Of a stretch of DNA of 59,445 nucleotides, positions 5,490 through 37,720 are shown piece after piece (position 1 is the first letter of the stretch; each line of letters opens with the position of its first letter). The DNA lies in NCBI GenBank assembly GCA_030699125.1, contig JAUYKM010000005.1, positions 1-59,445 of the forward strand, given 5' to 3'. Source of the stretch: Candidatus Daviesbacteria bacterium. GTDB taxonomy: Bacteria > Patescibacteriota > Microgenomatia > Daviesbacterales > UBA10151. Below the pieces are notes generated by a model that ran no database searches, was not told the DNA's origin, and worked only from the letters and a program-made list of their open reading frames with translations. A program made the translations under genes and the position numbers.

Positions 5490-5514
5490 AAAAAAACCGC
5501 CTCTTTTGGCGGTT
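5490..5514 (-). terminator. Intrinsic terminator-like hairpin between the typA promoter and typA start; could also terminate the topoisomerase IB gene
   Basis: Minus strand aaccgcc-aaaaga-ggcggtt followed by a T run. Confidence 0.65.
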
Positions 5515-5529
5515 CAAAAGCAGATGCTA

Positions 5530-5558
5530 AGTATACCATTTTGGATCCTACTTGGCAA
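5530..5558 (-). promoter_or_regulatory. sigma70-type promoter for typA
   Basis: TTGCCA-17 bp-TATACT on the minus strand. Confidence 0.55.
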
Positions 5559-5570
5559 ATGTTTAGGATT

Positions 5571-24674: not shown

Positions 24675-24898
24675 AAAAGTATTAGAAAACAATTGGGTAG
24701 TTGAACTCTAAGAGTTAAACTGTCAAAAATAAATGAAGTGTAATTTCTTGCAGTCGAAATAACGTAATCATTAAGTTTTCTAAATGTTGATTATATACTA
24801 CTTACCTTAAATTAGAAACAAGCTGGATAGTAAATGCCAGTTTGATGAGTTCAAACCTCCCATCAGGGGTAGTAAAAGTTGAGGCTAAAAGGTACTAG

Positions 24899-24971
24899 GG
24901 TGGCTGACGGGAATTGAACCCGCAACATTCAGATCCACAATCTGACGCTCTGCCATTGAGCTACAGCCACC
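24899..24971 (-). tRNA. tRNA-His(GUG)
   Basis: G-1, GTGGCTG/CAGCCAC, anticodon arm TCAGA-TT-GTG-GA-TCTGA, T-loop TTCAATT, C discriminator. Confidence 0.95.
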
Positions 24972-25034
24972 AGTTGGATTGTCTAAATGACAATTCAACA
25001 CATATTTTATCAGCTTAAATATAATTTATCCACT

Positions 25035-25136
25035 AAAAATCCGACCTTGCGGCCGGATTCTTAGAGAACCTGTTACTGTTAGCTTTTGATGGCCAACGAA
25101 ACTTTCAATCTTGCGATATCAGTTTTAACAGGTTCT
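25035..25136 (-). ncRNA. Candidate small RNA / attenuator (three-way junction plus terminator)
   Basis: 11-bp closing stem agaacctgtta/taacaggttct, inner hairpins atc-GCAA-gat and gttggc-catcaaaa-gctaac, then aatccggcc-GCAA-ggtcggatt followed by a T run. Confidence 0.55.
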
Positions 25137-25139
25137 GTA

Positions 25140-25168
25140 ACTATATAATGATAAACAACTTCTGTCAA
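25140..25168 (-). promoter_or_regulatory. Near-consensus sigma70 promoter driving the candidate sRNA
   Basis: TTGACA-17 bp-TATAGT. Confidence 0.7.
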
Positions 25169-25170
25169 CT

Positions 25171-25205
25171 GGGATTAAATGGATCATATCCCATCAAAAC
25201 ACCAA
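25171..25205 (+). repeat. Array repeat A, copy 1 (partial)
   Basis: gggattaaatggatcatatcccatcaaaacaccaa; lacks ataaatgccg relative to copies 2 and 3. Confidence 0.8.
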
Positions 25206-25266
25206 ACTTGCAAACTAAACATATCAGTGCTAAAATTGCCATATAAATCTGCTTAGGAATAAATTT

Positions 25267-25626
25267 ATGCCAGAAAAAGCTAGAGTATTTATTGCTGAAG
25301 ATGAAAAAGATTGGCAACAAAGAATTGAACGTAATCTTAAAAGAAGTGAGCATGAAGTAGTTTTAACTGCCGAGACATTGGCAGAAGCCCTTAGAGCGCT
25401 TGATCGATTTGAGGAACTCCAGGTACAGGTAGCTACACTCGATGGAAATTTAAGAGGAAAATATTCTTATGGATTAGATGGTCGTGAGGTATCGCTAGCA
25501 ATTAGAAGTCGTTTCCCAAATGTAAAAATAGTTGGTTTGTCTAGTGACAAATTTCGCGGAGAAGCTGATATAGAGTTAAATAAGGCTGACACATTCAAAC
25601 TAGGAGAAGTTGTTGCAAATTTGTAA
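25267..25626 (+). CDS. Stand-alone response-regulator receiver (CheY-like)
   Basis: VFIAEDE, VATLDGNL (phospho-Asp), IVGLSS, NK. Confidence 0.82.
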   Translation: MPEKARVFIAEDEKDWQQRIERNLKRSEHEVVLTAETLAEALRALDRFEELQVQVATLDGNLRGKYSYGLDGREVSLAIRSRFPNVKIVGLSSDKFRGEADIELNKADTFKLGEVVANL

Positions 25627-25721
25627 AATCTTTAATTACGTTGAGGATCTGGAAGCTCACCTTGTATTCTTATTGCATCAATAAAAGTAGTAAATTTCTG
25701 TCAGTACACGTACTGGCAATT

Positions 25722-25803
25722 TTAGAAGGGTAAGATTTCTGAAGATTTAACTTTTAATGCAACAGATAATCCTTTCAAGATTTCAAAAGATGGGTTTTCT
25801 TCA
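25722..25803 (-). pseudogene. XRE-HTH C-terminal remnant B1
   Basis: EENPSFEILKGLSVALKVKSSEILPF*; no start codon, in-frame stop immediately upstream. Confidence 0.7.
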
Positions 25804-26055
25804 TCCTAAAATCTTTTTTATGGCTTCATTGGGAATTCCAACTCGTCTTAATTGAGTTCTATAGCTTGCTGAGGTGTTAGGATCATAGTTTCCTTTCTTT
25901 AAAATTACTATGACAAAAGGCCTGGTACCTTTTGGAACTTTTTGTGGAGTAGGATGGACGTATTTTAAATGACTGGTGGCATTTTGAGGTTCTTCAGTAA
26001 ACTTTTGATCTTTTAATAATTTACAAAGTTCTTCAGAAGTAAATGATCGAGGCAT
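25801..26055 (-). CDS. HicA-like mRNA interferase toxin
   Basis: 84 aa; ELCKLLKDQKF, TSHLKYVHP (His motif); paired with a HicB-like gene. Confidence 0.7.
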   Translation of the reverse strand: MPRSFTSEELCKLLKDQKFTEEPQNATSHLKYVHPTPQKVPKGTRPFVIVILKKGNYDPNTSASYRTQLRRVGIPNEAIKKILG

Positions 26056-26061
26056 TTTAGA

Positions 26062-26385
26062 TTAATGAAAATAAGTTTGATGCAGCTTAGGAGACACAAA
26101 GATATTAAATTTTATTAACTCCTCTAAACGGTTTTTTGGTTTCTGAACTACCGGTTCCTGAATAAAAGGTGGAATATACCATACTTTATGTTGAAGTTTT
26201 TTAGGAATGTCAAAAAAGGCATACATCAGATCATTTACATTATAGATTAATCCTATTAGATCACCGGCCTCCGTAAAGACATCTAGATTTTTTATATTAG
26301 CCAACCAGATTCCGGTTTTAGGATTTCTGGATACTTTGACATCTAATTCCTCTGGCAGTTGTTCAAGAATTTTTAAACTTTTCAT
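26062..26385 (-). CDS. HicB-like antitoxin
   Basis: WLANIKNLDVFTEAGDL...NVND partial RNase-H-like HicB N-domain; adjacent to hicA-like gene. Confidence 0.65.
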   Translation of the reverse strand: MKSLKILEQLPEELDVKVSRNPKTGIWLANIKNLDVFTEAGDLIGLIYNVNDLMYAFFDIPKKLQHKVWYIPPFIQEPVVQKPKNRLEELIKFNIFVSPKLHQTYFH

Positions 26386-26431
26386 AAGTTAAATATAACA
26401 TACTTTTTCTAAAAATGTGTAAGAAAATTTA

Positions 26432-26486
26432 GTGTGTTTAAGGGATAAATGCCGATTAAATGGATCATATCCCATCAACACACCAA
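26432..26486 (+). repeat. Array repeat A, copy 2
   Basis: gtgtgtt-taa-gggata ... tatccc-atc-aacacac-caa hairpin; 45-bp core is 44/45 identical to copy 3. Confidence 0.9.
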
Positions 26487-26558
26487 AATTTGACTTTATA
26501 CTGGCATTGGTGGATTTTATAGAGCTTTTTATCGTAAATCTAAATTACTCTTGCCGAT

Positions 26559-27263
26559 CTAGTAAAGCCTTAAGTTGGTAATCTCTACCGTATCACTAAA
26601 AACTTCTACTTCATCTATAGAACTTTTCCATGGGATTACTACATCCTTAGCTATTGTAATGGCATGTGGTTCATAAACTACCTCTGGCTGCCATGCTGCA
26701 TATACAACATCTGGTTCATCTGGATTTATATTAATTTCTGTTACTACTTTATGCTTTGTAATTATAAATGCAAATTTTTCTGGTAAATGTAAAATAGGTG
26801 GTTCATTTCTTCTAATTTCTATTAAAGGTGTATTTCCTTCAGCCCTGCGGGCTAAAATTCCATTTCCACCAAAGAGCCAAGGTTGGTCAAATGGTTCTTT
26901 AAGTGGTTCTCCATCTGGTTGGTATCTAAAACCATAGGTAAACTCAGGAAATCCTAAGTCACGAGCAGTATAAGCGCTATAAGTTAAGTGGGTAAGTGGA
27001 TATTTCCCAGGATTACTTTTTATTAGGGAAGCAACTTCCCGAAAAGTAGCTATTCCTTCACTAATCCATGACATAAATCTGTCACCTCCTTCACGACCTC
27101 TAAATCCATTAAAAAACCTTACAACTGGTCTTATTATCGGCGGTAAACCAGCAATACGCTCAGAATGTTTTGTCCATTTCTGGCTTAACTCCTCTATTTT
27201 AGATTGAAGGTCTTGGTGGTGCAGATATTTTTCTTTAATTGCTTGGTCAACCTCGGCCGTCAT
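26559..27263 (-). CDS. Hypothetical protein (cassette cargo)
   Basis: 234-aa ORF with no recognisable motif. Confidence 0.65.
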   Translation of the reverse strand: MTAEVDQAIKEKYLHHQDLQSKIEELSQKWTKHSERIAGLPPIIRPVVRFFNGFRGREGGDRFMSWISEGIATFREVASLIKSNPGKYPLTHLTYSAYTARDLGFPEFTYGFRYQPDGEPLKEPFDQPWLFGGNGILARRAEGNTPLIEIRRNEPPILHLPEKFAFIITKHKVVTEININPDEPDVVYAAWQPEVVYEPHAITIAKDVVIPWKSSIDEVEVFSDTVEITNLRLY

Positions 27264-27299
27264 ATCTTAAGGGGAATTATATCATCTATGAAACCACAA

Positions 27300-27408
27300 T
27301 TAGAAAGGTAACATCTTTGAAGATTTAACTTTTAATGCTACAGATAATCCTTTTAAGATTTCAAAAGATGGATTTTCTTCTTCTCTTTCAATTCTAACAT
27401 TATAGCTA
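27300..27408 (-). pseudogene. XRE-HTH C-terminal remnant B2
   Basis: NSYNVRIEREEENPSFEILKGLSVALKVKSSKMLPF*; 59/62 nt identical to B1 over the core. Confidence 0.75.
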
Positions 27409-27437
27409 TTGACAAATTGTACAACTCTATGTACAAT
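27409..27437 (+). promoter_or_regulatory. TA promoter with paired TGTACA operators
   Basis: TTGACA-17 bp-TACAAT; TGTACA at 27418 and 27430, 12 bp apart, as in YefM-type operators. Confidence 0.75.
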
Positions 27438-27445
27438 AAGTTTAT

Positions 27446-27700
27446 ATGAGTAATTTAATTTCCATATCTGATGCTAGAGCAAAACTTCCTGATCTTGTTG
27501 ATAAAGTTGATAAAAATATGGATAGAGTAGTAATTACAGTAAATGGTCAGCCTAAAGCAACCCTTATAAGTGCAGAAGAGCTGGAATCACTGGAAGAAAC
27601 TGCTGAAATTCTATCAATCCCCAATATTAAAAAAGATCTTGCAAAAAGTAGAAAACAAATTAAAAAAGGTGAGTTTGTTCTTCTTTCAAACCTTAAATAA
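27446..27700 (+). CDS. Phd/YefM-family antitoxin
   Basis: ISISDARAKL, VVITVNGQPKATLIS.EELESLEET. Confidence 0.92.
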   Translation: MSNLISISDARAKLPDLVDKVDKNMDRVVITVNGQPKATLISAEELESLEETAEILSIPNIKKDLAKSRKQIKKGEFVLLSNLK

Positions 27701-27948
27701 TGCAAGTTCTTCTTTCAAAGGATGCTCAAAAACAATTCAAGAAACTTCCTGAAAATGAGCAATTAAAAGTAAAAAGAAAATTACTAACACTTGAACAAGA
27801 TCCACAAGCTGGCAAAAAGCTGGAAGGAGAGTTAAGTGACTTTCGTTCTCTCAAAGTTTGGCCATATCGTATTTTGTATGAGATAAATACTCTAGAAAAA
27901 AGAATTGAAATACACAAAATTGTTCATAGACAAAGTGCATATAAATAA
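27700..27948 (+). CDS. RelE/ParE-family toxin
   Basis: GKKLEGEL..FRSLKVWPYRILYEI, IVHRQSAYK; translationally coupled to the antitoxin. Confidence 0.92.
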   Translation: MQVLLSKDAQKQFKKLPENEQLKVKRKLLTLEQDPQAGKKLEGELSDFRSLKVWPYRILYEINTLEKRIEIHKIVHRQSAYK

Positions 27949-27965
27949 CTATCACTTGAGGTGAA

Positions 27966-28019
27966 TGTGTTCGGGGGATAAATGCCGATTAAATGGACCA
28001 TATCCCATCAACACACCAA
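27966..28019 (+). repeat. Array repeat A, copy 3
   Basis: tgtgtt-cgg-gggataaatgccgattaaatggaccatatcccatcaacacaccaa. Confidence 0.9.
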
Positions 28020-28047
28020 GTAACTAATTTGACACAGAATATCAAAG

Positions 28048-29325
28048 GTGATACTGTTCATTTACAATATGGCACTTGGCGAAACTCTAAATCGTGCCCG
28101 CGAAAGATTAATTACTCCTACTGATGTTCAACTGGTGCAAAGATTTCTAGATAGTGGCATAAAAAACGTCGTAACAGTTCCCTGTTCCATCACCCAAACA
28201 ATTGATCCGATCTGGTCAGCTAAGGCAAGCGCGGGCGAGATGAATTATTGGAAAATGGTTAATGAACACTCCTTAGTGGGAGTTACTAGTGGAGTTTATT
28301 TCGGGACAGGAGAGTTAGCACTTGCCCATATGCAAAATTCTGGTATCGGAAATGCCTTAGATGGATTTGTTTCCTACGCAGGGGTATACAAAATCCCAAC
28401 CTTAACAATTGTTACCTGGAGAGGAAATGATGCCAAAGATGATTCTGAACCCCACCAGGAAATAGGCAGAAGAACAAACAGGTTAACAAGAGATGTAGTG
28501 GATAGAAAGAGTATTTTTGGTGAGAGAAACGGAAGAGGAATTCTTAGACAGGTTGACGAAGCAGTTTTGCGGGCCAGGGAGGGAAACCCATGTATTCTTA
28601 GACTTTCTCCTGATGCCTTCAAGAAAACTTATCCTATGACACTTCCGGAGATAGTAGAGACAGATTTTCTGCATATTGATCATAGAATAGAGGAGTTAAG
28701 TGCAGGAAAGGGAGATACTATGGATAGTGTATTTAAAAGAGAAAGAATTTCCAGGGCAGAAGCAGTTCAAGGAATAACCAAGGATGAAGAGAGGGCCGTA
28801 ATCTTAAGTAATGGCTTTACAGCCCGAGAAGCTCAAGAGAAGGCAGACAGATTAGGTAACTTCTATAACGCTGGTTACATGGGTGGGGGCTTAGCAATTG
28901 GATGGGGTATGGCTAAGAGTAATCCCGATATAAAGGTAGTGGTAGTTGATGGAGATCAGAATGCAGAAATGGGTAAGATGACAGAAATTTTGGCTAATGA
29001 TTATCCTGGTAATTTAGAGTGGTATATTTTGGACAATGGGTTTGGTACATCAGTAGGTGTATCTGAGAGTGTGCCTTTGCCTTGGTGGTACTATGATTTG
29101 GCGCATGTTATTAGAACTGTTCCAGATAAACCTGGTGAATTTAAATCTCCCAGAGTTGGTGGAAGAGGAAGTTATTTTGATTTACAAGAAGCTCAGGAGA
29201 TGGCGGATAGGATTGGTCCCCTTCCTGTCCATGCTAACAGATTTAGGCACTGGGTAGAGATGAAAAGTCAAGAGAATCACCAACAAAAGAGATGGAACGA
29301 ATTCCTGGAACGAGTCTCACGATAA
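28048..29325 (+). CDS. Fused TPP-dependent decarboxylase (phosphonopyruvate/sulfopyruvate decarboxylase-like); true start may be 28069
   Basis: VTVPCS, NEHSLVG, MQNSGIGN, WRG...DSEPHQEIG, GYMGG, VVDGDQN...ILDNG. Confidence 0.82.
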   Translation: MILFIYNMALGETLNRARERLITPTDVQLVQRFLDSGIKNVVTVPCSITQTIDPIWSAKASAGEMNYWKMVNEHSLVGVTSGVYFGTGELALAHMQNSGIGNALDGFVSYAGVYKIPTLTIVTWRGNDAKDDSEPHQEIGRRTNRLTRDVVDRKSIFGERNGRGILRQVDEAVLRAREGNPCILRLSPDAFKKTYPMTLPEIVETDFLHIDHRIEELSAGKGDTMDSVFKRERISRAEAVQGITKDEERAVILSNGFTAREAQEKADRLGNFYNAGYMGGGLAIGWGMAKSNPDIKVVVVDGDQNAEMGKMTEILANDYPGNLEWYILDNGFGTSVGVSESVPLPWWYYDLAHVIRTVPDKPGEFKSPRVGGRGSYFDLQEAQEMADRIGPLPVHANRFRHWVEMKSQENHQQKRWNEFLERVSR

Positions 29326-29361
29326 ACCGCTAGGGTAAAATCTTTATGCCTCAACTTTGGC

Positions 29362-29435
29362 AAAAAAAAGGGACCAGGAGCTTGTTAGGCTGTAATGCAA
29401 AAAATGCAAAACAAAAAAACAAGACTACTGGTCCC
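29362..29435 (-). terminator. Large-loop terminator-like hairpin downstream of the adhesin-like gene
   Basis: gggaccag..cttgtt / aacaag..ctggtccc followed by T8 on the minus strand. Confidence 0.55.
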
Positions 29436-29496
29436 TACTAAACAATCTTAACGATTAACGCTTTGAGAGGCTATAGCCAATAGTTCACTAGTTCCT

Positions 29497-31557
29497 TTAG
29501 TAAGGAGTGGTGAATGGACAGAGGGTGGGGCTGGGTGTAAAAAGCACCGGGACCGATTCGTTTTCGTTGATGGTATTAACCGTCAAACGCAAAGAACACA
29601 AATCCGGAGTGCCTCCGTTGAACCAGCTTGTTAAAGCCGCGTCAGCAAGTGCGATGACCTCATCGACTGTAAGACCGCTGTTGGGGTCACCTGCATTCAT
29701 GTAAGTGGCCGAACCCATTCCCGCAAACTTGCGGACATTGAGCTTTAGAGCCAACAGCTGAGCACTCAAGAGCTCATGGCAATCTCCGCTGGAATCAGCT
29801 GGAGGCAGAAATTCGCTTTCGCGACAGTCTGCTCCGTTGCCGGTTGAACACAGGTTTCCGATCTCGCCGGGTAAGGTTTGGGAGGGCTCATCGAGACTTC
29901 CATCAGCTGCAAATACAAGATCTGCATCTTCTGGAGAGTTAACGATTAAATGCCGTCCAATTGCTTGTCCAATTAAGATTGGATTAGCTGCCAGACCGTT
30001 GTAGGTCGGATCCTTTGGTGCTTCAGGAGCTGTAGCTTCTGTTCCAGAATGAGTTTTCCAGTAACCCCAGGTTAACCCACCTTCGAAAGGAATCAGGCAA
30101 ATGTTGCCGAAGTTCTTTCCGGTGACTACCTCAGGCGGCTGTGGAGAACCATCTCCTGCGTGAAGCGGGAAAGTCTCCCGATGTCCACCCGGTGCTTCAG
30201 GGTTTAAGGCTGAGCAGAGCGTATTCTGCGGTGCAGTCTGAACCCAATCAGCATCAGGAAGAACTTCACACACCAGATAGGTGCCCGGGATCAAACCAGT
30301 GAAGGCGTACTCGCCGGACGCATTAGTGTAAGTCGTGGTAATCAGCACGCCGTTCTGGTAGAGCTCGATCCTCCAGCCTGGGATAGAAACCTCATCCCTT
30401 GATGCTCCGTCACGGTTGCTGTCATAGAACTTGCGTCCTCTGATCTCGTTCAGCTGGATGTTGCCGAACCGTAGATCCTGAGCGGATGATACTTTGCCAC
30501 TGCTCTTGGTGAGAGTGACAATGTAGTATCCATCTTTTGGATCTACTGTAGTTCCTGCAGGCTGTACCAAAGGCACATCTGCATCTGTTGGATCGGTGTT
30601 CAGCCAGTTGGCTTGGAGTACCTCGTTGACAGTGTAGGTCCCTTCCTGTCGTTCACAGAAAGAGAACTGCCCAGTCGCTGAGCTCACATCCGTGGCCAAG
30701 ACAGTGCCCGTGCCGTTTGAGCCGGAACGAAGCTGAATGGTCCAACCGGACAAACCTTCTTCGCCCGTGTCGAGATCGCCGTCAGCATTGTGATCATGGT
30801 ACTTTATTCCCACGATACAGCCAAGCTGAAGTCTTTCCCGGACTTTGAAGTTGTCGGTCTTGGTGTGACCTTGCTGGAATCCAGCCAGGTTGGCTGCCCG
30901 ACAGGCCGCTACTGTGGGACTGTTACCAGGGCCTGGTACACAGGAGAGATTTCCACCGTTTCCGGTGTAGTCATCCTCACTGGTAATCCAGGTTTTGTAA
31001 ACACCCCCGTTGTTGGGCGTGTCGTCGAACTTGTCTCCGCCGCCTGAAACCGCTCTGTTGAGCTGGATGGTTTTAGCCGATCCATGTATCCCAACATCGT
31101 GGTCGTGACCTGTCTTGTGCTCACAGCTTCCAGTGACAACTACCCCTGAGATCCGACCGTTGCTGGCAGTGAAACGCCGGCATTGGGCCGCATCGTTTGA
31201 GAGTAGTACTTCCAGGTTGTTATCAGAGCCTGGTGGAGCTGTAACCATGAAGACGTACGTTCCGTCAGCCAATCCGTCGCCGCCAGGGCCATTGGGTCCT
31301 CCATTTAGGAAGACACAATCCTTGGCATTGGCTGCCGCCGGTAAACCAACTGCTGCCAGTTGTGCATTACAGTCAGTAAAACTCGGATTAGGTCCGGGTT
31401 CGGGGTAAACGTTGCCGTTTACCTGCTCACCATGAGGGTATGATGTCCAGATTGCTCCGTTAAGAGCATGAGCAGAAACCCCATTAAGGGTAATCTGAGT
31501 AAACAACACACCAGTTAGGAGAACTAGAAATGCTGTTGCCAATATTCTGCTTCGCAC
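29497..31557 (-). CDS. Secreted SdrD-B/Cna-B repeat surface protein, GC-richer than flanks
   Basis: Signal peptide; two G.KY.D.N.DG...EEGLSGWTIQL / GTYTVNEV modules; many Cys; SD ggagga before GTG. Confidence 0.8.
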   Translation of the reverse strand: MRSRILATAFLVLLTGVLFTQITLNGVSAHALNGAIWTSYPHGEQVNGNVYPEPGPNPSFTDCNAQLAAVGLPAAANAKDCVFLNGGPNGPGGDGLADGTYVFMVTAPPGSDNNLEVLLSNDAAQCRRFTASNGRISGVVVTGSCEHKTGHDHDVGIHGSAKTIQLNRAVSGGGDKFDDTPNNGGVYKTWITSEDDYTGNGGNLSCVPGPGNSPTVAACRAANLAGFQQGHTKTDNFKVRERLQLGCIVGIKYHDHNADGDLDTGEEGLSGWTIQLRSGSNGTGTVLATDVSSATGQFSFCERQEGTYTVNEVLQANWLNTDPTDADVPLVQPAGTTVDPKDGYYIVTLTKSSGKVSSAQDLRFGNIQLNEIRGRKFYDSNRDGASRDEVSIPGWRIELYQNGVLITTTYTNASGEYAFTGLIPGTYLVCEVLPDADWVQTAPQNTLCSALNPEAPGGHRETFPLHAGDGSPQPPEVVTGKNFGNICLIPFEGGLTWGYWKTHSGTEATAPEAPKDPTYNGLAANPILIGQAIGRHLIVNSPEDADLVFAADGSLDEPSQTLPGEIGNLCSTGNGADCRESEFLPPADSSGDCHELLSAQLLALKLNVRKFAGMGSATYMNAGDPNSGLTVDEVIALADAALTSWFNGGTPDLCSLRLTVNTINENESVPVLFTPSPTLCPFTTPY

Positions 31558-31653
31558 TGTTTTCCTCCAATTACAAAACTATACTCTACTGGAATTTAAT
31601 GAGCTTATTCAGAAAGCTAACAATCTGAAAAGCATACATCCCCCCTTTCTTAA

Positions 31654-31685
31654 AGGCTATATTAAATTGTTAAGGTACCTCCTTT
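31654..31685 (-). promoter_or_regulatory. Shared leader motif, copy 1
   Basis: 27/32 identical to 56764-56794. Confidence 0.6.
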
Positions 31686-31842
31686 CCGCTCTTTAGCGTA
31701 AAAGTTAGGATCTCTCTTATTACCCAGAAAGGATAAATAGGCCGCATTTGACCTTATCCTTTTATGGTTTTAAGAGAACCTATAAATTGGTTGGGGTTGA
31801 AAAAACAAGCCGCTTTTGGCTTGAAACCCTAATCCGAATCCG

Positions 31843-31871
31843 ATAGTAATAAATCCTTAGTTAAATGTCAA
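31843..31871 (-). promoter_or_regulatory. sigma70 promoter giving a ~280-nt leader
   Basis: TTGACA-17 bp-TACTAT. Confidence 0.65.
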
Positions 31872-31986
31872 GTAATGCTGATCATAACTGATAAATATTT
31901 CATGTAAATTTTGGGGACTTAGAATAATAAACTACAGGTATGACTTAATATGGCAAACTATAACAATATCTGTTATTTAAAAAAAG

Positions 31987-33708
31987 CTAGTTTGAAAAAG
32001 GAAGTAGATCCCAAAGTTCTATTGGGTTAAGGATGGCAGATAATATGTTTGGTTCCAGGGTTCCAAAGTCTAAAATATTTTCACCGCTGATTAATTCTTT
32101 TTGAATTGTTTTAACTTTATAGTTTTCCTTTTCCAGACTAAATTCAAAAGTATAACCCGGCAACAAGTATCTTGCCTCCAAATCCCCTGATTGTCCAGCT
32201 TCAGATAAAATTATTTTTTGAACTGTTTCACCTGTCGGGCCTTTCACACTAAGTAAATATTCTCCTTTGTGAACTCTTTTCCACTTAAGAAGGCTGATGA
32301 TTTTTAATATAACCGGAGATTTTACTTCTGTGGTGAATTCAACTGATCCGCTTTCAAACTGTTCTGAGCCGAAGAATAGATTTAGTACAAGATTGAATGA
32401 GCCCTTCCCAGGCGCATGCAAATCCAGCTGAAAAGTGTATTCCTGACCAGGTTCTATCTTAGTATCTGGTGGCACCTCAACTTCTTTAATTCCTAAATCA
32501 TTTCCGCCTTTTAGAGGAATAAGCTTTACTGTTTCACTATCATTCCAGATTGACTGACCGATATTTTTAAGAGTTAAATTAATTTGGTAGCTTTCACCAG
32601 ATACAATAGTATTGTAGATTTCTCCCTTGATAAGTTGAGCTCTGTGCTCTTGCACAGGTTTTCCAGCTACTTTTGGGAGATTCTTGATAGTATGATATTG
32701 CGGATAAAAAGTGTTTTGAGTACCATTGCCATTAAATTTCTTGAAGGAAAAATGATCAAATGGCCCCTCCTGATAATCTAGCAGAAATGGTGTGATGGCC
32801 ACTATCCTTTGGGATGACCAAGCAATCTCAAATGCTGATTTATAATACTGGGCTACCTTTTCAGCTGAAGGGAAGGATGAGTATGTTTGGAGTCCTTCTG
32901 CATGTTGCCAACCAGTTTCCGTAATAAAAACAGGCAAATTTTTAGTTACTCCCATCTCTCGCAGTATCTGCAGTTCCCAGTACCAGGTTCTAATTGTGCC
33001 TCTGCCATTATCATCAGGTGAACCAGTAAAATTCGGATTGGGATAGGAGTGAGAGACCCAGCCATCCAGTTTATTAAAGATACCTGGTACTTCTTCCTCC
33101 ATCTGTCTCATAAATTTAACTTGATCTTCATATAAAGGAGGCTTTGAGGGCGCTGAGGCATCAAAACCTCCGTTGAGTACAAAATAGTCTCGATTTTTTG
33201 ATTTTAGCTCTGTGATAACCTTATCTAATACTTTTGCATACATTTTAGCGTCAACAAAATTTCCCCATTCTTTACCATGATTAGGCTCATTATAGACAAT
33301 AACATATCTGTTCTTGGTAGGCCAGTTAAGGCTATTCAAAAAGTCTGCCCAGGCTTTTTCCTCTCCCTCATAAGGCCTTTCCCATCCGTCAGCTGACGGA
33401 TCATTAAGCGGCTTGGTGGCCAGCCTAACAATGGGAATTAGGTGTTTACTTCTAAGTTCATTAAAAAACGCCTGCCATTTATTATGATCTCTGTCTTTAG
33501 ATTCAATTAAGAAAGTTACATAGCCCCAATCTCCATTGGTATTTGCCAATGATGCAGCAGGGGAAGATTCATCAGGAGTAGCATGAATAATATGAATGCC
33601 AAATTTATTATTGGGAACAGATAAAGGATCATAAACTGCTTCCACAATCTTTGTTGTAACTAATAAATACAAGGCTGCAAGAAGTAATAAGGTGGCAATA
33701 ATCCGCAT
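31987..33708 (-). CDS. Secreted clan GH-A glycoside hydrolase-like protein with C-terminal Ig-like domains
   Basis: Signal peptide; IVYNEPNH (acid/base), SHSYP, PVFITETGW (nucleophile); LKNIGQSIW Ig domain. Confidence 0.78.
   Translation of the reverse strand: MRIIATLLLLAALYLLVTTKIVEAVYDPLSVPNNKFGIHIIHATPDESSPAASLANTNGDWGYVTFLIESKDRDHNKWQAFFNELRSKHLIPIVRLATKPLNDPSADGWERPYEGEEKAWADFLNSLNWPTKNRYVIVYNEPNHGKEWGNFVDAKMYAKVLDKVITELKSKNRDYFVLNGGFDASAPSKPPLYEDQVKFMRQMEEEVPGIFNKLDGWVSHSYPNPNFTGSPDDNGRGTIRTWYWELQILREMGVTKNLPVFITETGWQHAEGLQTYSSFPSAEKVAQYYKSAFEIAWSSQRIVAITPFLLDYQEGPFDHFSFKKFNGNGTQNTFYPQYHTIKNLPKVAGKPVQEHRAQLIKGEIYNTIVSGESYQINLTLKNIGQSIWNDSETVKLIPLKGGNDLGIKEVEVPPDTKIEPGQEYTFQLDLHAPGKGSFNLVLNLFFGSEQFESGSVEFTTEVKSPVILKIISLLKWKRVHKGEYLLSVKGPTGETVQKIILSEAGQSGDLEARYLLPGYTFEFSLEKENYKVKTIQKELISGENILDFGTLEPNILSAILNPIELWDLLPFSN
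33384..33401. repeat. 18-bp perfect palindrome within coding sequence
   Basis: atccgtcagctgacggat; same family as tccgccagctggcgga at 52913. Confidence 0.6.
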
Positions 33709-33803
33709 ATATTTGGAGCCTTACATTTTATCATAAATATGTTGTTTACGTTTGCTATTTGGTTAAAAGTAATGTACAATTCGGATTTAAATCTGCCTTT
33801 TTT

Positions 33804-36068
33804 ATGGAAAACAAAGTGGTTTTACAAATCCAAACTCCCAGAACTTCTGAGGAAACTCCGGAAGCAATGTCTCAATTTTTGTCAAGTTTAACTAACCTCA
33901 AAAAAATCATTCTTGTGTATTTCAGAAGGGGAATTCCCATTTCATTAGAAATAGCTGCATTTGATCAAACCATTCGTTTTTTTATAGTTATTCCGAAAGA
34001 ATATCAAACATTTGTGGAAAGTCAGCTTCTGTCACAATATCCCAAAGCAATTATTACCCAAGTTAAGGATTACCTACCTTCGTGTTTAGCGCCAATTAGT
34101 AATATTAGAGTAGCTAGATTGAGGCTAAGAAATGATTATATCTATCCTCTAAAAACTTATACAGAATTTAAAGATGTTGATCCCCTGTCTTCACTTTTGG
34201 GAATTTTATCCAAACTGGGAAATGAGGAGAAAGTAGTCATCCAATTTTTGCTTTATCCGATCTCAAACTCCTGGCAAAATAGAGGAAAAGGAGCTTTTGA
34301 AACAAAATATGATGACCTAGGCAAACCTATCCATTCTCAATACGGCAGTTATGGTAAAAAGAGCATCATGGATAAAATCAGTCAGGATGGTTTTAAAGTC
34401 GGAGTAAGGTTGCTAGTCAATAGCTCCAGTAAGGGCCTTTTAAGTCTCATTGCCGCATCATTTGGCAGTTTCAATAATCCGGAAGGCAACAGCCTAATAC
34501 TTTCCCGAACCTATTTCTATCAAAAGGATAGACTTCTTAAGGCTATTTTGAAGCGTACAAAATCTGTTATTCCATCCCGACAAGTCCTAAATTTATCTGA
34601 AGTTGCCACCATGTTTCATCTACCGAACAATAAATTGTCAACCATTTCCAATATTTCCTGGATAAAATCTATCCTTTCACAACCACCTGATAACTTACCG
34701 ATTGCTCAAAATTTAACTGATCAGGAAAAAACAGAGATTAATTTTTTTGCCAGAACCGAATTTAAGAACAAACCGCAAATTTTTGGCATCAAAAAAATTG
34801 ACCGAAGAAGGCATATTTATATTATTGGAAAAACCGGTACTGGTAAGTCTACTTTGATTGCCAATATGGCTATCTCCGATATCAGAAATGGCCAAGGCTG
34901 TGCCATTATTGATCCGCACGGAGATTTGGCCCAACTTCTGCTTAAATACATTCCCTCATATAGGGTTAATGATGTTATTTATCTTGATCCATCTGATACC
35001 AGTCATCCTTTTCACCTTAACCCCCTGGAAATAACTGACCCGGCTCAAAAGGAACTGGTAGCATCCGGCATTGTAGCCATATTTCATAAACTTTATGCTC
35101 ACACCTGGGGTCCCAGACTGGAATATATCTTAAGAAATACCATCCTGACTCTTTTGGAAACTCCTGATCCTACCTTAGTCCAGGTCCCTTCTCTTTTAAC
35201 TGATCCCACATACAGAAGGCAGTTGGTTTCCAAATTAAATGACAGGATTTTGGCCAACTTCTGGCTTAATGAATTTGAGCAGATGCCTCCCAAGTTGAAA
35301 AGTGAGTCTATTTCACCAATCTTAAACAAAGTGGGACAGTTTATCTCATCCCCCATGATCAGAAATATTGTGGGTCATTACAAATCATCTTTTAGCTTTG
35401 AAGACGTCATGAATCAGGGTAAAATTATTATCTTAAATTTATCACAAGGCAAGATGGGTGAGGATCATGCGGCACTCTTGGGTGCCATGGCCATTACCAA
35501 GATGCAGTTGGCTGCTATGAACAGGGTTAATTTGCCGGAAGAGGAGAGACGTGATTTTTATCTTTATGTGGATGAGTTTCAAAATTTTGCTACCACCTCT
35601 TTTATTAAAATTCTTTCTGAATCCAGAAAATACCGACTCAATTTAATATTAGCCAATCAATACACTGCCCAGACTCCTGAGGATGTCCGCTCAGCTATTT
35701 TTGGCAATATCGGTACTTTGATTTCTTTTTTAGTGGGAGCTGAGGACAGTCGTTACTTAGCAAGAGAATTTGCAGAAAGATTTAAGGAAGAAGACTTACT
35801 GGCTTTGGGAAATTACCAGATGCTCCTTAAATTAACTATTGATGCTGTTACATCTTCGCCCTTCTTTGCCCAAAGTCTACCTTTACCTAACAGTATAACT
35901 CAAAATAAGGACAAGGTGATCAGAATTTCCACAGAAAGATATGGAAAAAAAGCGGATGTTAGGGAGATAAATAAACCCAAAATTTTTAGGGAAGAGGTAG
36001 AACCTTTTTCTCACGCTGCCCCTCTTAATTCTATTCCTACCTCAGGAAGTATTCTTTTCTCTAAATAG
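33804..36068 (+). CDS. Type IV coupling protein-like / HerA-DUF87 ATPase
   Basis: GKTGTGKST, IIDPHGDL, LNPLE, WGPRLEYIL, LYVDEFQNF, SESRKYRL..ANQY. Confidence 0.88.
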   Translation: MENKVVLQIQTPRTSEETPEAMSQFLSSLTNLKKIILVYFRRGIPISLEIAAFDQTIRFFIVIPKEYQTFVESQLLSQYPKAIITQVKDYLPSCLAPISNIRVARLRLRNDYIYPLKTYTEFKDVDPLSSLLGILSKLGNEEKVVIQFLLYPISNSWQNRGKGAFETKYDDLGKPIHSQYGSYGKKSIMDKISQDGFKVGVRLLVNSSSKGLLSLIAASFGSFNNPEGNSLILSRTYFYQKDRLLKAILKRTKSVIPSRQVLNLSEVATMFHLPNNKLSTISNISWIKSILSQPPDNLPIAQNLTDQEKTEINFFARTEFKNKPQIFGIKKIDRRRHIYIIGKTGTGKSTLIANMAISDIRNGQGCAIIDPHGDLAQLLLKYIPSYRVNDVIYLDPSDTSHPFHLNPLEITDPAQKELVASGIVAIFHKLYAHTWGPRLEYILRNTILTLLETPDPTLVQVPSLLTDPTYRRQLVSKLNDRILANFWLNEFEQMPPKLKSESISPILNKVGQFISSPMIRNIVGHYKSSFSFEDVMNQGKIIILNLSQGKMGEDHAALLGAMAITKMQLAAMNRVNLPEEERRDFYLYVDEFQNFATTSFIKILSESRKYRLNLILANQYTAQTPEDVRSAIFGNIGTLISFLVGAEDSRYLAREFAERFKEEDLLALGNYQMLLKLTIDAVTSSPFFAQSLPLPNSITQNKDKVIRISTERYGKKADVREINKPKIFREEVEPFSHAAPLNSIPTSGSILFSK

Positions 36069-36158: not shown

Positions 36159-36401
36159 ATGTTAGAACTTTCCGAACCTGTTAATGTCTGGGTGTTTTTT
36201 AAAGGTACCAAAGTGGAACCCTGGTGTTTTTTCTGGCGTTCCAGACAAATCAAAGTAGACAAAATTAATCTGGTCCATACCTCAAAAGAAGGCAATACTG
36301 TTTTTTATCATTTTTCTATATCTAGTGGGGGTAATTTTTACAGATTAAAGTTTGATGCAACTAAGATGAATTGGATACTTGAGGGAGTGGAGGAAGGGTG
36401 A
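36159..36401 (+). CDS. Small conserved-looking protein coupled to dinB
   Basis: 80 aa, FFWRSRQIKV...W; stop overlaps the dinB GTG. Confidence 0.65.
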   Translation: MLELSEPVNVWVFFKGTKVEPWCFFWRSRQIKVDKINLVHTSKEGNTVFYHFSISSGGNFYRLKFDATKMNWILEGVEEG

Positions 36402-37720
36402 GAACTATACTGCATATTGACTTTAATTCATACTTTGCCACAGTTGAGCAGCAGGCTAATCCGCGTTTGCGTGGGAAACCGATTGGGGTAACCGGCGGAG
36501 ACCGCATGGCAAGAACAGTTCTAGGTGCTGCTTCTGTGGAGGCCAAAAGATTTGGGGTTAAAACCGGTATGCAGATTTGGGAGGCTAAAAAGCTTTGCCC
36601 TGAGCTTATTTTGGTGAAAGGGGATTCGGATAAGTATTTGGAGTGTACCAAGAGATTTTTGGCCATTTTAAAAGACTACAGCCCTGCTTTGGAGGTATTT
36701 AGTATTGATGAATGCTTTTTAGAGCTCTCTCCTCCTGTCATTGCGAGCAAAGCGAAGCAATCTAGTCAAGATAGAAACCCAACCCAGATTGCTTCGTCGC
36801 TACCGCTCCTCGCAATGACAATAAAACAGCGTATCAGAGCTGAGATAGGTGAGTGGATTACTTGTTCTATTGGCATTTCCTATAACAAACTGATGGCTAA
36901 GCTGGCTGGATCTTTATATAAGCCAGATGGATTGGTGGTAATCGAGGATGAGAAAGCTGCCCAATTTATTTTAGATAGGGTAGAGTTGGATGATATATGC
37001 GGGATAGGGGGGAGAATCAAAAAGAGGCTGAATAATATGGGGGTTTTTAACTTTACCCAGTTAAGAAAAGTGCCTCTAAGGGCACTTTTGGCCTCCTTTA
37101 AATCTTATGGGCAAATTCTTTATAACATGGCCAGAGGGATAGATTATTCGAAAATTATGCCATTTTATGAGAAAGAGGAAGTTAAAAGTATCGGCCACAG
37201 GCATACTATAGATCATGATACAGACAACCCCCAGGAGATTAAGCAAATCTTACTTAAACTGACAGAATTGGTAGCGAGAAGGCTTCGGGCTAAAAAGTTG
37301 GTAGGGAAAACTGTCCATTGTTGGTACAGAGAAGCTGTGAAAGAACTGGGAGCTAAGAACTATGAACTAGGAAATTATTCTCCTAGTTCCACTTTCCAAG
37401 GTGATGGGATGCAAACTACAATTAATCCCACCCAAAATGGATTGGAAATTTTTAAAGCTGCCTGGGGAATCTTTCATCAGATATGGGATGGAAATAGAAT
37501 CCGTATGATTGGGGTATCAATTTCCAACCTCAAGCTACAAAATCCAAAAAATTTGACTTTTTTAGAAAAGGATCTCCGTCAGGAAAAGATCCTGCAAACT
37601 CTGGATAAAATTAATGACAGATATGGAGAGTTTACATTACAAAGAGGACTTCTTCTTGGATCTGTCACCATGCGCCGTAAACCCAACCCCTTTTTAGCAG
37701 ACAGAAGATTCAAGCTATAA
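36398..37720 (+). CDS. dinB: DNA polymerase IV (Y family) with two in-frame repeat insertions
   Basis: HIDFNSYFATVEQ, SVEAKRFGVKTGM, SIDECFL, SYNKLMAKLA, GIG, IGVSISNL. Confidence 0.95.
   Translation: MRTILHIDFNSYFATVEQQANPRLRGKPIGVTGGDRMARTVLGAASVEAKRFGVKTGMQIWEAKKLCPELILVKGDSDKYLECTKRFLAILKDYSPALEVFSIDECFLELSPPVIASKAKQSSQDRNPTQIASSLPLLAMTIKQRIRAEIGEWITCSIGISYNKLMAKLAGSLYKPDGLVVIEDEKAAQFILDRVELDDICGIGGRIKKRLNNMGVFNFTQLRKVPLRALLASFKSYGQILYNMARGIDYSKIMPFYEKEEVKSIGHRHTIDHDTDNPQEIKQILLKLTELVARRLRAKKLVGKTVHCWYREAVKELGAKNYELGNYSPSSTFQGDGMQTTINPTQNGLEIFKAAWGIFHQIWDGNRIRMIGVSISNLKLQNPKNLTFLEKDLRQEKILQTLDKINDRYGEFTLQRGLLLGSVTMRRKPNPFLADRRFKL
36736..36820. repeat. RPE-like palindromic element in frame in dinB
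   Basis: Outer 12-bp arms tgtcattgcgag/ctcgcaatgaca; inner 11-bp arms cgaagcaatct/agattgcttcg. Confidence 0.85.
37343..37389. repeat. Heptamer tandem plus hairpin in frame in dinB
   Basis: gaactgg-gagctaa-gaactat-gaactag; gaactagga/tcctagttc 9-bp stem. Confidence 0.6.

What the first reader, a model, noticed from the sequence alone, without database searches (positions are those of the whole stretch)
25171..28019. Periodic mini-cassette array: [repeat A - cargo - XRE remnant - TA pair] x2 - repeat A, with no recombinase
Seen in sequence: three direct copies of a hairpin repeat (25171, 26432, 27966; copies 2 and 3 are 44/45 identical) bound two units of about 1.2 and 1.5 kb. Each unit has the same order: one cargo gene (receiver domain; unknown 234-aa protein), then a near-identical XRE-HTH 3' remnant on the minus strand, then a TA pair from a different family (HicB-HicA; Phd-RelE). 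A third unrelated gene (TPP decarboxylase) starts 29 bp after copy 3. Inference: a TA-stabilised, site-specifically assembled cassette array. It is analogous to integron or pdif arrays but uses a different site, and any recombinase would have to act in trans.
Basis: partly seen in the sequence, partly recalled or inferred. Interest (0 to 1): 0.85.

Follow-up and report, generated by a model that had tools for sequence, protein, structure and literature searches.

The report
Tandem transposase-less transposon cassettes at one hotspot
The three "repeat A" copies are the abutted inverted-repeat ends plus 8-bp target duplications of two small transposase-less transposons, relatives of IS1595-family elements, that landed one after another in the same target site of a Daviesbacteria (CPR) genome; this is a cassette array built by transposition, not by an integron-like recombinase.

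Summary
There are three direct copies of repeat A, none expected by chance, and they bound two units of 1,273 and 1,525 bp. Each unit holds a cargo gene, an XRE 3' remnant and a two-gene module.

The interpretation needs changing. Repeat A is composite: right inverted repeat (…GTGTTnnnGGGATAAATGCC), then 8 bp (GATTAAAT), then left inverted repeat (GGATCATATCCCATCAACACACC). In 10 related loci from Daviesbacteria genomes and metagenomes the same two ends bracket elements of 1-5 kb. Each element is flanked by an 8-bp direct repeat that differs between loci but matches at its two ends. One relative (L004) has the empty target.

Five of these elements carry an IS1595-family DDE transposase divergently paired with an intact XRE gene. 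The XRE "remnants" in the window are therefore vestiges of the transposon's own regulator gene. Insertion always occurs 2 bp downstream of GTCAACT, with the left end facing the motif. The motif survives each insertion, which explains a tandem array with the same duplication three times.

The window's units lack a transposase, like mobile insertion cassettes. No transposase or recombinase was found in the 59 kb. This is a new variant of a known kind, of moderate interest.

The parts
24898..24970 (-). tRNA-His(GTG), conserved left landmark of the hotspot
   Evidence: ARAGORN and Rfam, 71.6 bits. The same tRNA sits next to the site in L001, L004, L009, L012, L043, L055 and L078.
25025..25168 (-). 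Conserved minus-strand promoter (TTGACA 25168..25163, 17-nt spacer, TATAGT 25145..25140), a hairpin RNA of about 105 nt, and an intrinsic terminator. This is the chromosomal flank of the target.
   Evidence: Read directly from the sequence. It is conserved in 9 loci, with compensatory changes in the closing stem and the terminator. No Rfam family matches.
25164..25172 (+). Target motif GTCAACT plus a 2-nt spacer (GG)
   Evidence: GTCAACT is invariant in 13 of 13 sites at three different chromosomal loci, always 2 nt before the 8-bp duplication. The other 8 GTCAACT heptamers in the window are unoccupied.
25173..25180 (+). Target-site duplication, copy 1 (GATTAAAT)
   Evidence: The same 8 bp occur once in the empty site of L004.
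25181..26453 (+). Unit 1, a 1,273-bp transposase-less element: IRL 25181-25206, then the receiver-domain gene 25267-25626(+), XRE remnant B1 25722-25805(-), the 84-aa HicA-like gene 25801-26055(-), the 107-aa partner 26062-26385(-), and IRR 26428-26453
   Evidence: Ends and inverted-repeat identity of 18/26. Genes. XRE remnant. No transposase remnant.
26454..26461 (+). Target-site duplication, copy 2 (GATTAAAT), between IRR of unit 1 and IRL of unit 2
26462..27986 (+). Unit 2, a 1,525-bp transposase-less element: IRL 26462-26487, then the 234-aa unknown protein 26559-27263(-), XRE remnant B2 27300-27407(-), Phd/YefM 27446-27700(+), ParE/RelE 27700-27948(+), and IRR 27961-27986
   Evidence: A homologous unit with the same cargo but an RHH-PIN pair occurs in L096.
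27987..27994 (+). Target-site duplication, copy 3 (GATTAAAT)
27995..28020 (+). Orphan left inverted repeat (GGACCATATCCCATCAACACACCAAG) of a third element, presumably older, whose body and right end are gone. It abuts the promoter region of the TPP-enzyme gene.
   Evidence: No partner IRR was found in 28020-32000 or elsewhere in the window. The 50 nt upstream of TPP are homologous to L004 9970-9991.
31987..33708 (-). 573-aa gene (called fam0 here). In relatives it is the conserved right flank of the target.
   Evidence: 62% identical to the L004 gene that lies to the right of the empty site. It is the right flank in L004, L009, L012, L028 and L043.

Best explanation
**What the units are.** The two units are non-autonomous, transposase-less derivatives of an IS1595-family transposon lineage that circulates in Candidatus Daviesbacteria. 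They resemble mobile insertion cassettes. The autonomous form is: IRL, passenger genes, an XRE gene and an IS1595 DDE transposase gene in divergent orientation, then IRR.

**How insertion works.** The transposase, supplied in trans from a copy elsewhere in the genome or from a past copy, binds the roughly 26-bp imperfect inverted repeats. It inserts the element 2 bp downstream of a GTCAACT motif, with IRL facing the motif, and duplicates 8 bp.

**How the array forms.** The motif and the left copy of the 8 bp stay intact after insertion, and there is evidently no target immunity. A later element can therefore enter the same 8 bp and push earlier ones to the right. The result is: motif, DR, unit 1, DR, unit 2, DR, older remnant. 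'Repeat A' is simply IRR + DR + IRL.

**What has decayed.** In the window's units the transposase and the 5' half of XRE have been lost, and a two-gene toxin-antitoxin-type module sits in that position next to IRR.

**Shown versus inferred.**
- Shown: the TIR/TSD anatomy, the empty site, the locus-specific concordant duplications, co-occurrence with the transposase, and absence of a transposase in the window.
- Inferred: that this transposase acts on these ends; how the target is recognised; the order of insertion; and a stabilising role for the TA modules.
For: 1. **Anatomy.** Each copy of A splits into IRR, 8 bp and IRL. IRL and the reverse complement of IRR share 14-20 of 26 positions, both start with GG, and they co-vary within elements (L075: both ends ..CAGAACACCAA; L039: both ..CTCACCA; L028: both ..AACACACTTA).

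2. **8-bp direct repeats.** They match at the two ends of every element but differ between loci and lineages:
- window: GATTAAAT x3
- L009: GATCAAAT x2
- L028 and L043: GACAAAGT x2
- L039: GACGAAGT / GACGAAAT
- L075: GTAGAAAT x2
- L089: GACAAAAT x2
- L084/L086: ATCAAACT x2

3. **Empty target.** L004 has GTCAACTAG|GATTAAAT|GGATCAAAATA with the same chromosomal flanks (tRNA-His plus sRNA on the left, the fam0 gene on the right).

4. **Transposase link.** An IS1595-family transposase lies inside the TIR-bounded element in L028/L055, L075, L089 and L084/86, and next to IRL in L078. It scores 200 bits on NF033547 against a cut-off of 75, also hits PF12762 and the IS1595 Zn-ribbon, and two copies are 86% identical. 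It is always divergent from an intact XRE whose C-terminus equals the window's B remnants.

5. **Family hallmarks.** 8-bp direct repeats and GG-initiated IRs are reported for the IS1595 family (PMC12561309). IR-bracketed, transposase-less, TSD-flanked cassettes mobilised in trans are the definition of a MIC (PMC3913671).

6. **Three independent target loci.** These are tRNA-His-sRNA|fam0, lexA|fam37 and prs|rpiB. All have GTCAACT-N2 before the duplication, and IRL is always on that side, 13 of 13.

7. **A second tandem case.** L043 has the motif, DR, a 961-bp element, DR, then an orphan IRL.

8. **Composition and gene content.** The units have lower G+C (0.33-0.35 against about 0.40). No transposase or recombinase was found in the window.
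Against: - No autonomous transposase copy could be shown in the window's own genome, because only 59 kb is available.
- No excision, circle-junction or empty-site reads could be examined. The islands in L009- and L028-type populations were identical across all samples retrieved, so ongoing mobility is not shown.
- The transposase-XRE pair sits in opposite orientation relative to IRL/IRR in different elements (L028 against L075/L089), and sequence similarity of that pair stops at the two stop codons. It could therefore be a separate module nested in a larger element.
- A sequence- and orientation-specific target is not, to my knowledge, a described property of IS1595-family elements.
- The third IRL has no partner. 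The TPP gene that follows it lies on the other side of fam0 in L004, so extra rearrangements have to be assumed.
- Many of the 13 sites are orthologous. The number of truly independent insertions is smaller, about 6-8.
Confidence: 0.75

Rival explanations
1. Site-specific recombination array. A is an att/attC/pdif-like site. Circular cassettes are inserted and excised by a tyrosine or serine recombinase encoded elsewhere, and copy 1 is an attL-type hybrid.
For: The sites can be typed as attB (L004), attL/attR (L009, L028) and attP-like (window A2 and A3, L043). The attP-like site is a 50-bp dyad, as in large-serine-recombinase attP sites. Large serine recombinases lie next to tRNA-His in L065/L066 and L078.
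Against: The 'core' is not constant. Its 8 variable bases differ between loci and lineages but are always the same at both ends of one element. A fixed attP core does not predict this.

The two serine recombinases lie outside the elements, on the other side of tRNA-His, ending in the tRNA 3' end, and they are absent from most loci. No recombinase is present in the window.

The sites lack integron R-box polarity, and all lie in direct orientation.
Confidence: 0.08
2. The TIR-bounded elements are transposons, but they are moved by a different transposase not yet seen. The IS1595 transposase-XRE pair is itself only a passenger or a nested IS.
For: The orientation of the Tnp-XRE pair relative to IRL/IRR flips between elements, and its similarity ends at the ORF ends. 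Half of the elements lack it (window u1 and u2, L009, L039, L043). An IS110-family transposase also sits beside the site in L055, L059, L060, L062 and L064.
Against: The Tnp-XRE pair has no inverted repeats or duplication of its own. All five transposase copies found lie within or directly beside these TIRs, in three chromosomal contexts. The 8-bp duplication and the GG termini fit the IS1595 family. IS110 elements have no TIRs and lie outside the TIR-bounded elements.
Confidence: 0.12
3. Tandem segmental duplication of one ancestral unit (A, gene, XRE, TA), followed by divergence or gene replacement, with no mobility of the units.
For: The order of parts is the same in both units, and the A and B repeats are 90-98% identical.
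Against: Apart from A and B, the two units share no sequence: the cargo, the TA families and the gene orientations all differ. The same ends bracket unrelated cargo at three different loci in other genomes. A homologue of unit 2 exists elsewhere with another TA pair.
Confidence: 0.03

Closest known systems
Mobile insertion cassettes (MICs, e.g. MIC231 of Bacillus cereus mobilised by the IS231A transposase; the qnrD mic elements)
   Same: They are bracketed by the inverted repeats of an IS family, carry passenger genes instead of a transposase, are flanked by a target-site duplication, and depend on a transposase supplied in trans (PMC3913671).
   Different: The parent family here is IS1595, not IS4/IS231. 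The cassettes retain a vestige of an XRE gene. They insert next to a specific motif in a fixed orientation and accumulate head-to-tail in one target. Trans-mobilisation is not demonstrated.
IS1595-family insertion sequences and their passenger-carrying relatives (Siguier, Gagnevin & Chandler 2009, cited in PMC12561309; ISApl4)
   Same: A DDE transposase with an N-terminal Zn-ribbon (NF033547, PF12762, PF12760), 8-bp direct repeats and IRs that begin with GG. From my own knowledge, some subgroups carry passenger genes.
   Different: The elements are constantly paired with an XRE-family gene. Passenger sets include a complete diversity-generating retroelement. Target choice appears sequence- and orientation-specific, whereas ISApl4 shows only an A/T-rich preference.
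Tn7 at attTn7, and Tn7-like genomic islands
   Same: Site- and orientation-specific transposition beside a conserved chromosomal sequence that is left intact. The attachment site becomes an island of variable cargo (PMC11014353).
   Different: There is a single small DDE transposase rather than TnsABCD. The duplication is 8 bp, not 5 bp. There is no sign of target immunity, which in Tn7 blocks a second insertion; here repeated insertion into the same 8 bp is the rule.
Integron cassette arrays and CALINs; pdif modules of Acinetobacter plasmids
   Same: Functionally they are ordered arrays of small gene cassettes separated by a repeated imperfect palindrome. Arrays often hold TA cassettes, and new cassettes probably enter at the end next to a fixed chromosomal site.
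   Different: No IntI or Xer dependence is indicated. The repeated site is two transposon ends plus a duplication. The units hold several genes on both strands with their own promoters. The sites lack the RYYYAAC...GTTRRRY polarity, and all are in direct orientation.
Toxin-antitoxin pairs embedded in Tn3-family transposons (bioRxiv 10.1101/848275, listed)
   Same: Type II TA pairs sit within the transposition module region of a DDE transposon and may stabilise it.
   Different: A different transposon family. Here the TA pairs sit where the transposase gene is in autonomous relatives, and they differ between homologous units (Phd-ParE in the window, RHH-PIN in L096).

Membership tests
Mobile insertion cassette (non-autonomous IS derivative) | Terminal inverted repeats at both ends | tested here: met
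   IRL against the reverse complement of IRR: 18/26 for unit 1 and 15/26 for unit 2, with both ends starting GG. In relatives the range is 14-20/26, with co-variation within elements.
Mobile insertion cassette (non-autonomous IS derivative) | Flanking target-site duplication | tested here: met
   GATTAAAT flanks both units. The 8-bp repeats are concordant in 8 further elements and are locus-specific. An empty site exists in L004.
Mobile insertion cassette (non-autonomous IS derivative) | No transposase gene inside; passenger genes instead | tested here: met
   tblastn with two transposase copies finds nothing in the window. Pfam and NCBIfam on all unit ORFs give no transposase.
Mobile insertion cassette (non-autonomous IS derivative) | An autonomous element with the same inverted repeats encodes the transposase | tested here: met
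   Met in relatives: L028/L055, L075, L089, L084/86 and L078. Not testable for the window's own genome.
Mobile insertion cassette (non-autonomous IS derivative) | Mobilised in trans by that transposase | not testable with these tools
   Needs a transposition assay or read-level evidence.
IS1595 family | DDE transposase of the IS1595 type with an N-terminal Zn-ribbon | tested here: met
   NF033547 at 196-202 bits against a cut-off of 75; PF12762 and PF12760. Found in related elements only, not in the window.
IS1595 family | 8-bp direct repeats at insertion sites | tested here: met
   The family property comes from PMC12561309.
Integron / CALIN attC array | IntI integrase with attI, or attC sites with R'' RYYYAAC ... 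R' GTTRRRY polarity | tested here: not met
   No integrase among the ORFs of at least 120 aa in the 59 kb. The outer boxes read GTGTGTT...AACACAC on both strands, which is the opposite polarity. The attC consensus is from my own knowledge.
Integron / CALIN attC array | Cassettes of usually one promoterless ORF in one orientation | tested here: not met
   Each unit holds 3 genes on both strands. A sigma-70-like promoter lies upstream of phd: TTGACA, 17 nt, TACAAT at 27410-27438.
pdif / Xer-dependent modules, IMEX | 28-bp XerC arm, 6-bp spacer, XerD arm; modules flanked by oppositely oriented sites (pdif), or location at the chromosomal dif (IMEX) | tested here: not met
   All three sites are in direct orientation. 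There is no GC-skew switch at the locus. The comparison with the dif consensus was by eye only, and the consensus is from my own knowledge.
Integrase-mediated tandem integrative elements (attL/attR accretion, CIME-like) | A constant core sequence shared by attP and all attB sites | tested here: not met
   The shared 8 bp vary between loci and lineages but match within each element.
Type II toxin-antitoxin pairs (cargo of the units) | Adjacent small genes matching toxin and antitoxin families | tested here: met
   Unit 2: Phd (E 4e-18) and ParE/RelE (E 2e-10) overlap by one base. Unit 1 is inconclusive: the HicA hit is below threshold and the 107-aa partner has no family, but the pair is conserved as an operon elsewhere.

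The most novel reading that the evidence does not exclude
A small IS1595-family DDE transposon lineage in CPR bacteria has evolved sequence- and orientation-specific insertion (GTCAACT, 2 nt, then an 8-bp target). The reader of the motif may be its ever-present XRE-family partner or the transposase itself.

Because the target survives each insertion and there is no target immunity, the system would stack cassettes chronologically at a few chromosomal hotspots. That gives an integron-like gene-capture array built by transposition. The cassettes move whole diversity-generating retroelements, TA pairs and unknown genes between Daviesbacteria genomes.
Probability: 0.4. Interest if true: 0.65.

Novelty: new variant of a known kind. 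Interest (0 to 1): 0.5.

Why it matters
CPR bacteria have tiny genomes, and little is known about how they exchange genes. This finding points to a concrete vehicle that can be tested: a compact DDE transposon family with defined ends, a defined 8-bp duplication and a defined target motif. In relatives it carries a complete, demonstrably active diversity-generating retroelement. It decays into transposase-less cassettes that pile up at a hotspot.

If the target specificity is real, a single-protein or two-protein transposase that inserts in one orientation at a short motif would be unusual for the IS1595 family. It would also be easy to assay in E. coli.

The result is also a caution for genome scans. 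Abutted transposon ends look like a conserved hairpin "recombination site".

Tried and rejected
1. **attL/attR/attB/attP model.** I first typed the sites this way and considered a large serine recombinase, because the 50-bp dyad has 16/25 symmetric positions and an LSR lies beside tRNA-His in L009. I rejected it once the 8 'core' bases were seen to vary by locus yet match within elements, and the LSRs were seen to lie outside the elements.

2. **Integron attC, dif/pdif and IS200/IS605-type hairpin ends.** The polarity, the orientation or the crossover position do not fit.

3. **A as an RNA or regulatory motif.** There is no Rfam hit, and only copy 2 folds better than shuffles.

4. **IS110 'bridge RNA' idea for the conserved sRNA next to A1.** Dropped, because the sRNA is present without any IS110 gene in most loci.

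5. **Collection scans.**
- The X-arm pattern found nothing new in genome contigs or viral contigs.
- The five viral hits to the core pattern lack both arms and look like chance. L008 is also a chance hit.

6. **Population variants of the window's own locus.** Look-ups of the receiver, the 234-aa protein and the TPP protein returned only the one Logan contig.

7. **Partner IRR for the third IRL.** None was found. A weak GGATAAAT-containing stretch at 31728-31760 is not convincing.

8. **Structure of the 234-aa cargo protein.** AlphaFold2 on a 10-sequence alignment gave mean pLDDT 40.5. That is too poor for a fold search, so none was run.

9. **PDB sequence search with the HicA-like protein.** No hit.

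10. **Shared promoter region between TA and transposase.** The -35 region of the TA promoter in unit 2 shares 11 nt (TTGTCAATAGC) with the transposase-side intergenic region of autonomous elements. This is suggestive only (E about 0.02).


Full report
**1.

The 33-nt core of repeat A occurs three times (25173, 26454, 27987) with at most 1 mismatch and nowhere else in the 59 kb. None of 100 shuffles gave a match. Copies 2 and 3 share a further 21-nt left arm.

A second repeat, B (25722-25805 and 27300-27383, 90% identical), translates on the minus strand to the C-terminus of an XRE-family HTH protein.

- Phd (E 4e-18) and ParE/RelE (E 2e-10) are solid.
- The receiver domain (28.6 bits) and HicA (18.5 bits) are below Pfam thresholds.
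- The 107-aa 'HicB' matches nothing.

The region lies about 200 bp from tRNA-His and has lower G+C than its surroundings. A Logan assembly of run SRR13727534 is identical over 10,953 bp.

**2. Relatives show what repeat A is made of**

DNA-pattern and protein-anchored searches retrieved related loci from Candidatus Daviesbacteria MAGs and groundwater or sediment metagenomes.

The left flank of copy 1 is chromosomal and conserved. It consists of tRNA-His, an intrinsic terminator, a hairpin RNA, and a minus-strand TTGACA-N17-TATAGT promoter.

Aligning all sites splits repeat A into three pieces:
- a right end, ...GTGTTnnnGGGATAAATGCC
- 8 variable bases
- a left end, GG(A/G)TCATATCCCATCAnnACACC...

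The two ends are imperfect inverted repeats of each other, sharing 14-20 of 26 positions. They co-vary within elements.

Each element is flanked by the same 8 bp on both sides, but the 8 bp differ between loci and lineages:

| Locus | 8-bp repeat |
|---|---|
| window | GATTAAAT (x3) |
| L009 | GATCAAAT |
| L028, L043 | GACAAAGT |
| L039 | GACGAAGT / GACGAAAT |
| L075 | GTAGAAAT |
| L089 | GACAAAAT |
| L084/L086 | ATCAAACT |

L004, whose TPP enzyme is 76% identical to the window's, has the uninterrupted target GTCAACTAG|GATTAAAT|GGATCAAAATA between the same chromosomal flanks.

This is the signature of a DDE transposon with terminal inverted repeats and an 8-bp target-site duplication. A recombinase site with a fixed core would not give this pattern.

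**3. The enzyme and the XRE remnant**

In L028/L055, L075, L089, L084/86 and L078 the element contains a 290-293-aa IS1595-family transposase (in L078 it lies directly beside IRL). It scores 196-202 bits on NF033547 against a cut-off of 75, and also hits PF12762 and the IS1595 Zn-ribbon. Two copies from different loci are 86% identical.

The transposase gene is always divergent from an intact 71-74-aa XRE gene. The 3' end of that gene is the window's B repeat, at 83-87% nucleotide identity.

The B 'remnants' are therefore what is left of the transposon's own XRE gene. They are truncated at residue 49 in unit 1 and about residue 40 in unit 2.

Eight-bp direct repeats and IRs that begin with GG are reported for the IS1595 family (PMC12561309).

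The window holds no transposase remnant. It also holds no recombinase among ORFs of at least 120 aa. Units 1 (25181-26453) and 2 (26462-27986) are thus non-autonomous. They match the published definition of mobile insertion cassettes: IR-bracketed, TSD-flanked, no transposase, mobilised in trans (PMC3913671).

Transposase-less derivatives are common in this lineage: L009, L039, L043 and L096.

**4. Why an array forms**

All 13 typed left junctions have GTCAACT, then 2 nt, then the 8-bp duplication, then IRL. They lie at three unrelated chromosomal places:
- tRNA-His-sRNA | fam0
- lexA | fam37
- prs | rpiB

IRR never faces the motif. The heptamer alone is not sufficient, because eight other copies in the window are empty. 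Positions inside the duplication (nnnnAAnT) are also conserved, although part of that reflects shared ancestry.

Insertion leaves the motif and the left copy of the 8 bp intact, so the target is regenerated. A further element can then enter the same 8 bp, giving: motif, DR, new element, DR, old element, DR.

That is exactly the structure in the window, with three identical GATTAAAT copies. It is also the structure in L043: a 961-bp element followed by an orphan IRL.

The third IRL in the window (27995-28020) has no partner IRR. I read it as the stump of the oldest element.

The insertion order and the mode of target recognition are inferences. Tn7 offers a mechanistic analogy, with site- and orientation-specific insertion beside a preserved sequence. 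Tn7, however, has target immunity (PMC11014353), and none is evident here.

**5. Cargo**

In L009/L065-68 and L028/L055-58 the same ends bracket a complete diversity-generating retroelement: a target gene, a template repeat, bAvd and a reverse transcriptase. In L009, 21 of 22 VR/TR mismatches fall on template adenines, so the retroelement has been active.

L075 carries an erythromycin-esterase-like gene.

The window's unit 2 has a homologue in L096, 81% identical over 742 nt. It covers the 234-aa gene, the intergenic region and the XRE remnant. Next to IRR, L096 has an RHH-PIN pair where the window has Phd-ParE. The 5' region up to the antitoxin start codon is still alignable at 73%.

The 107-aa/84-aa pair of unit 1 recurs as an operon in unrelated contexts.

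In these transposase-less units (window u1 and u2, L096), TA-type two-gene modules thus occupy the position that the transposase has in autonomous elements of the L075/L089 type. The 234-aa protein remains unknown: it hits no family, has only 9 homologues, and the AlphaFold model had pLDDT 40.

**6. Rivals**

- **Recombinase/att reading.** I held this view until. It fails on the variable but concordant 8 bp, on the lack of any recombinase inside or consistently near the elements, and on site polarity and orientation.
- **Passenger transposase.** The IS1595 gene could be only a passenger. This remains possible (about 0.12), because its orientation relative to the ends flips between elements and because similarity of the Tnp-XRE pair stops at the ORF ends.
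- **Tandem duplication.** This is excluded by the lack of any shared sequence other than A and B.

**7. Limits**

- No read-level evidence of mobility could be obtained.
- The islands were identical in every sample retrieved for the L009 and L028 populations.
- No autonomous copy could be sought in the rest of the window's genome.
- In the window the TPP gene lies between copy 3 and fam0, but in L004 it lies beyond fam0. Additional rearrangement at the right edge is therefore unexplained.

**8. Verdict**

The feature is real and mobile-element derived. It is best described as a tandem array of transposase-less IS1595-family cassettes at a regenerated, motif-defined target. The element class is known: IS derivatives and mobile insertion cassettes.

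The following are not, as far as I could find, described for this family: the apparent site and orientation specificity, the stacking in one target, the constant XRE partner, and the DGR and TA cargo in a CPR lineage. A full-text search found no paper that mentions both DGR and IS1595.

Interest 0.5. Novelty: new variant of a known kind.

Noticed in passing
window 25025-25168 (minus strand): A canonical promoter (TTGACA, 17 nt, TATAGT) drives a hairpin RNA of about 105 nt that ends in a GNRA-looped intrinsic terminator, just upstream of tRNA-His. It is conserved in 9 Daviesbacteria loci, with compensatory changes (CG to UA in the closing stem; several in the terminator). The interior is variable or deleted. 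No Rfam family matches. The -35 box overlaps the transposon target motif.
   Followed up: partly
L009 3457-6683 (also L065-L068); L028/L055-L058: The same inverted repeats bracket a complete diversity-generating retroelement: XRE, a target gene, (HicAB), a template repeat, bAvd and a reverse transcriptase. In L009, VR 4526-4659 and TR 5514-5647 differ at 22 positions, and 21 of them are adenines in the TR. The DGR therefore rides on a DDE transposon.
   Followed up: partly
L065 6444-8105, L066 6412-8073, L078 3732-5255: Large serine recombinases (553 and 507 aa) end at or within the 3' end of tRNA-His, on the side away from the transposon hotspot, and about 6 kb of small genes lie to their left. 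This looks like a separate integrative element that targets tRNA-His. It is absent in L070 from another sample.
   Followed up: no
L055 2320-3543, also L059, L060, L062, L064: An IS110-family transposase (DEDD_Tnp_IS110 + Transposase_20) is inserted between tRNA-His and the sRNA/target region in some samples of the L028-type population. The NCBI contig of that genome (L028) breaks there.
   Followed up: no
L001 2524-3105; L009 2596-3255; L004 6983-7620: The short stretch between tRNA-His and the sRNA terminator is a second variable spot. It holds an HNH endonuclease gene in L001, a 219-aa ORF in L009, and in L004 a 159-aa ORF plus a fragment of a second tRNA-His.
   Followed up: no
window 28069-31557 and 31987-33708: The TPP-enzyme gene is accessory and has moved. 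In L004 it lies between fam0 and the next gene, in L009 and L012 it is absent, and in the window it lies between the orphan IRL and fam0. Beside it is a 686-aa SdrD/SpaA-like surface protein gene with G+C of 0.53, against about 0.40 for the genome.
   Followed up: partly
window 33759-57000: Relative to L009/L065, where fam0 is followed directly by an epimerase and tRNA-Arg(TCT), the window has about 23 kb inserted. The insert holds a TrwB/VirD4-like coupling ATPase (33759-36068), a DinB/ImpB polymerase (36398-37720), two giant GSDH-PKD-Ig surface proteins (1,001 and 2,368 aa) and glycosyltransferases.
   Followed up: no
window 27408-27448 and L096 6054-6141: The promoter/operator region up to the antitoxin start codon is alignable (73%) between the window's Phd-ParE and the RHH-PIN of L096, although the TA genes are unrelated. 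An 11-nt stretch (TTGTCAATAGC) also matches the transposase-side intergenic region of autonomous elements. This hints that TA genes replaced the transposase ORF behind a retained promoter.
   Followed up: partly
L001, L004, L039, L043 (record titles): Several 'binchicken'/TPA MAGs are titled uncultured Gammaproteobacteria or Pseudomonadales. They share this Daviesbacteria-specific locus and gene content with RIFCSP Daviesbacteria MAGs, so their titles look wrong.
   Followed up: no
window 5571-6629 (minus strand): A bacterial type IB topoisomerase gene (Topoisom_I + Top1B_N_bact). It is the only protein with a tyrosine-recombinase-like fold in the window, and it is not linked to the array.
   Followed up: no
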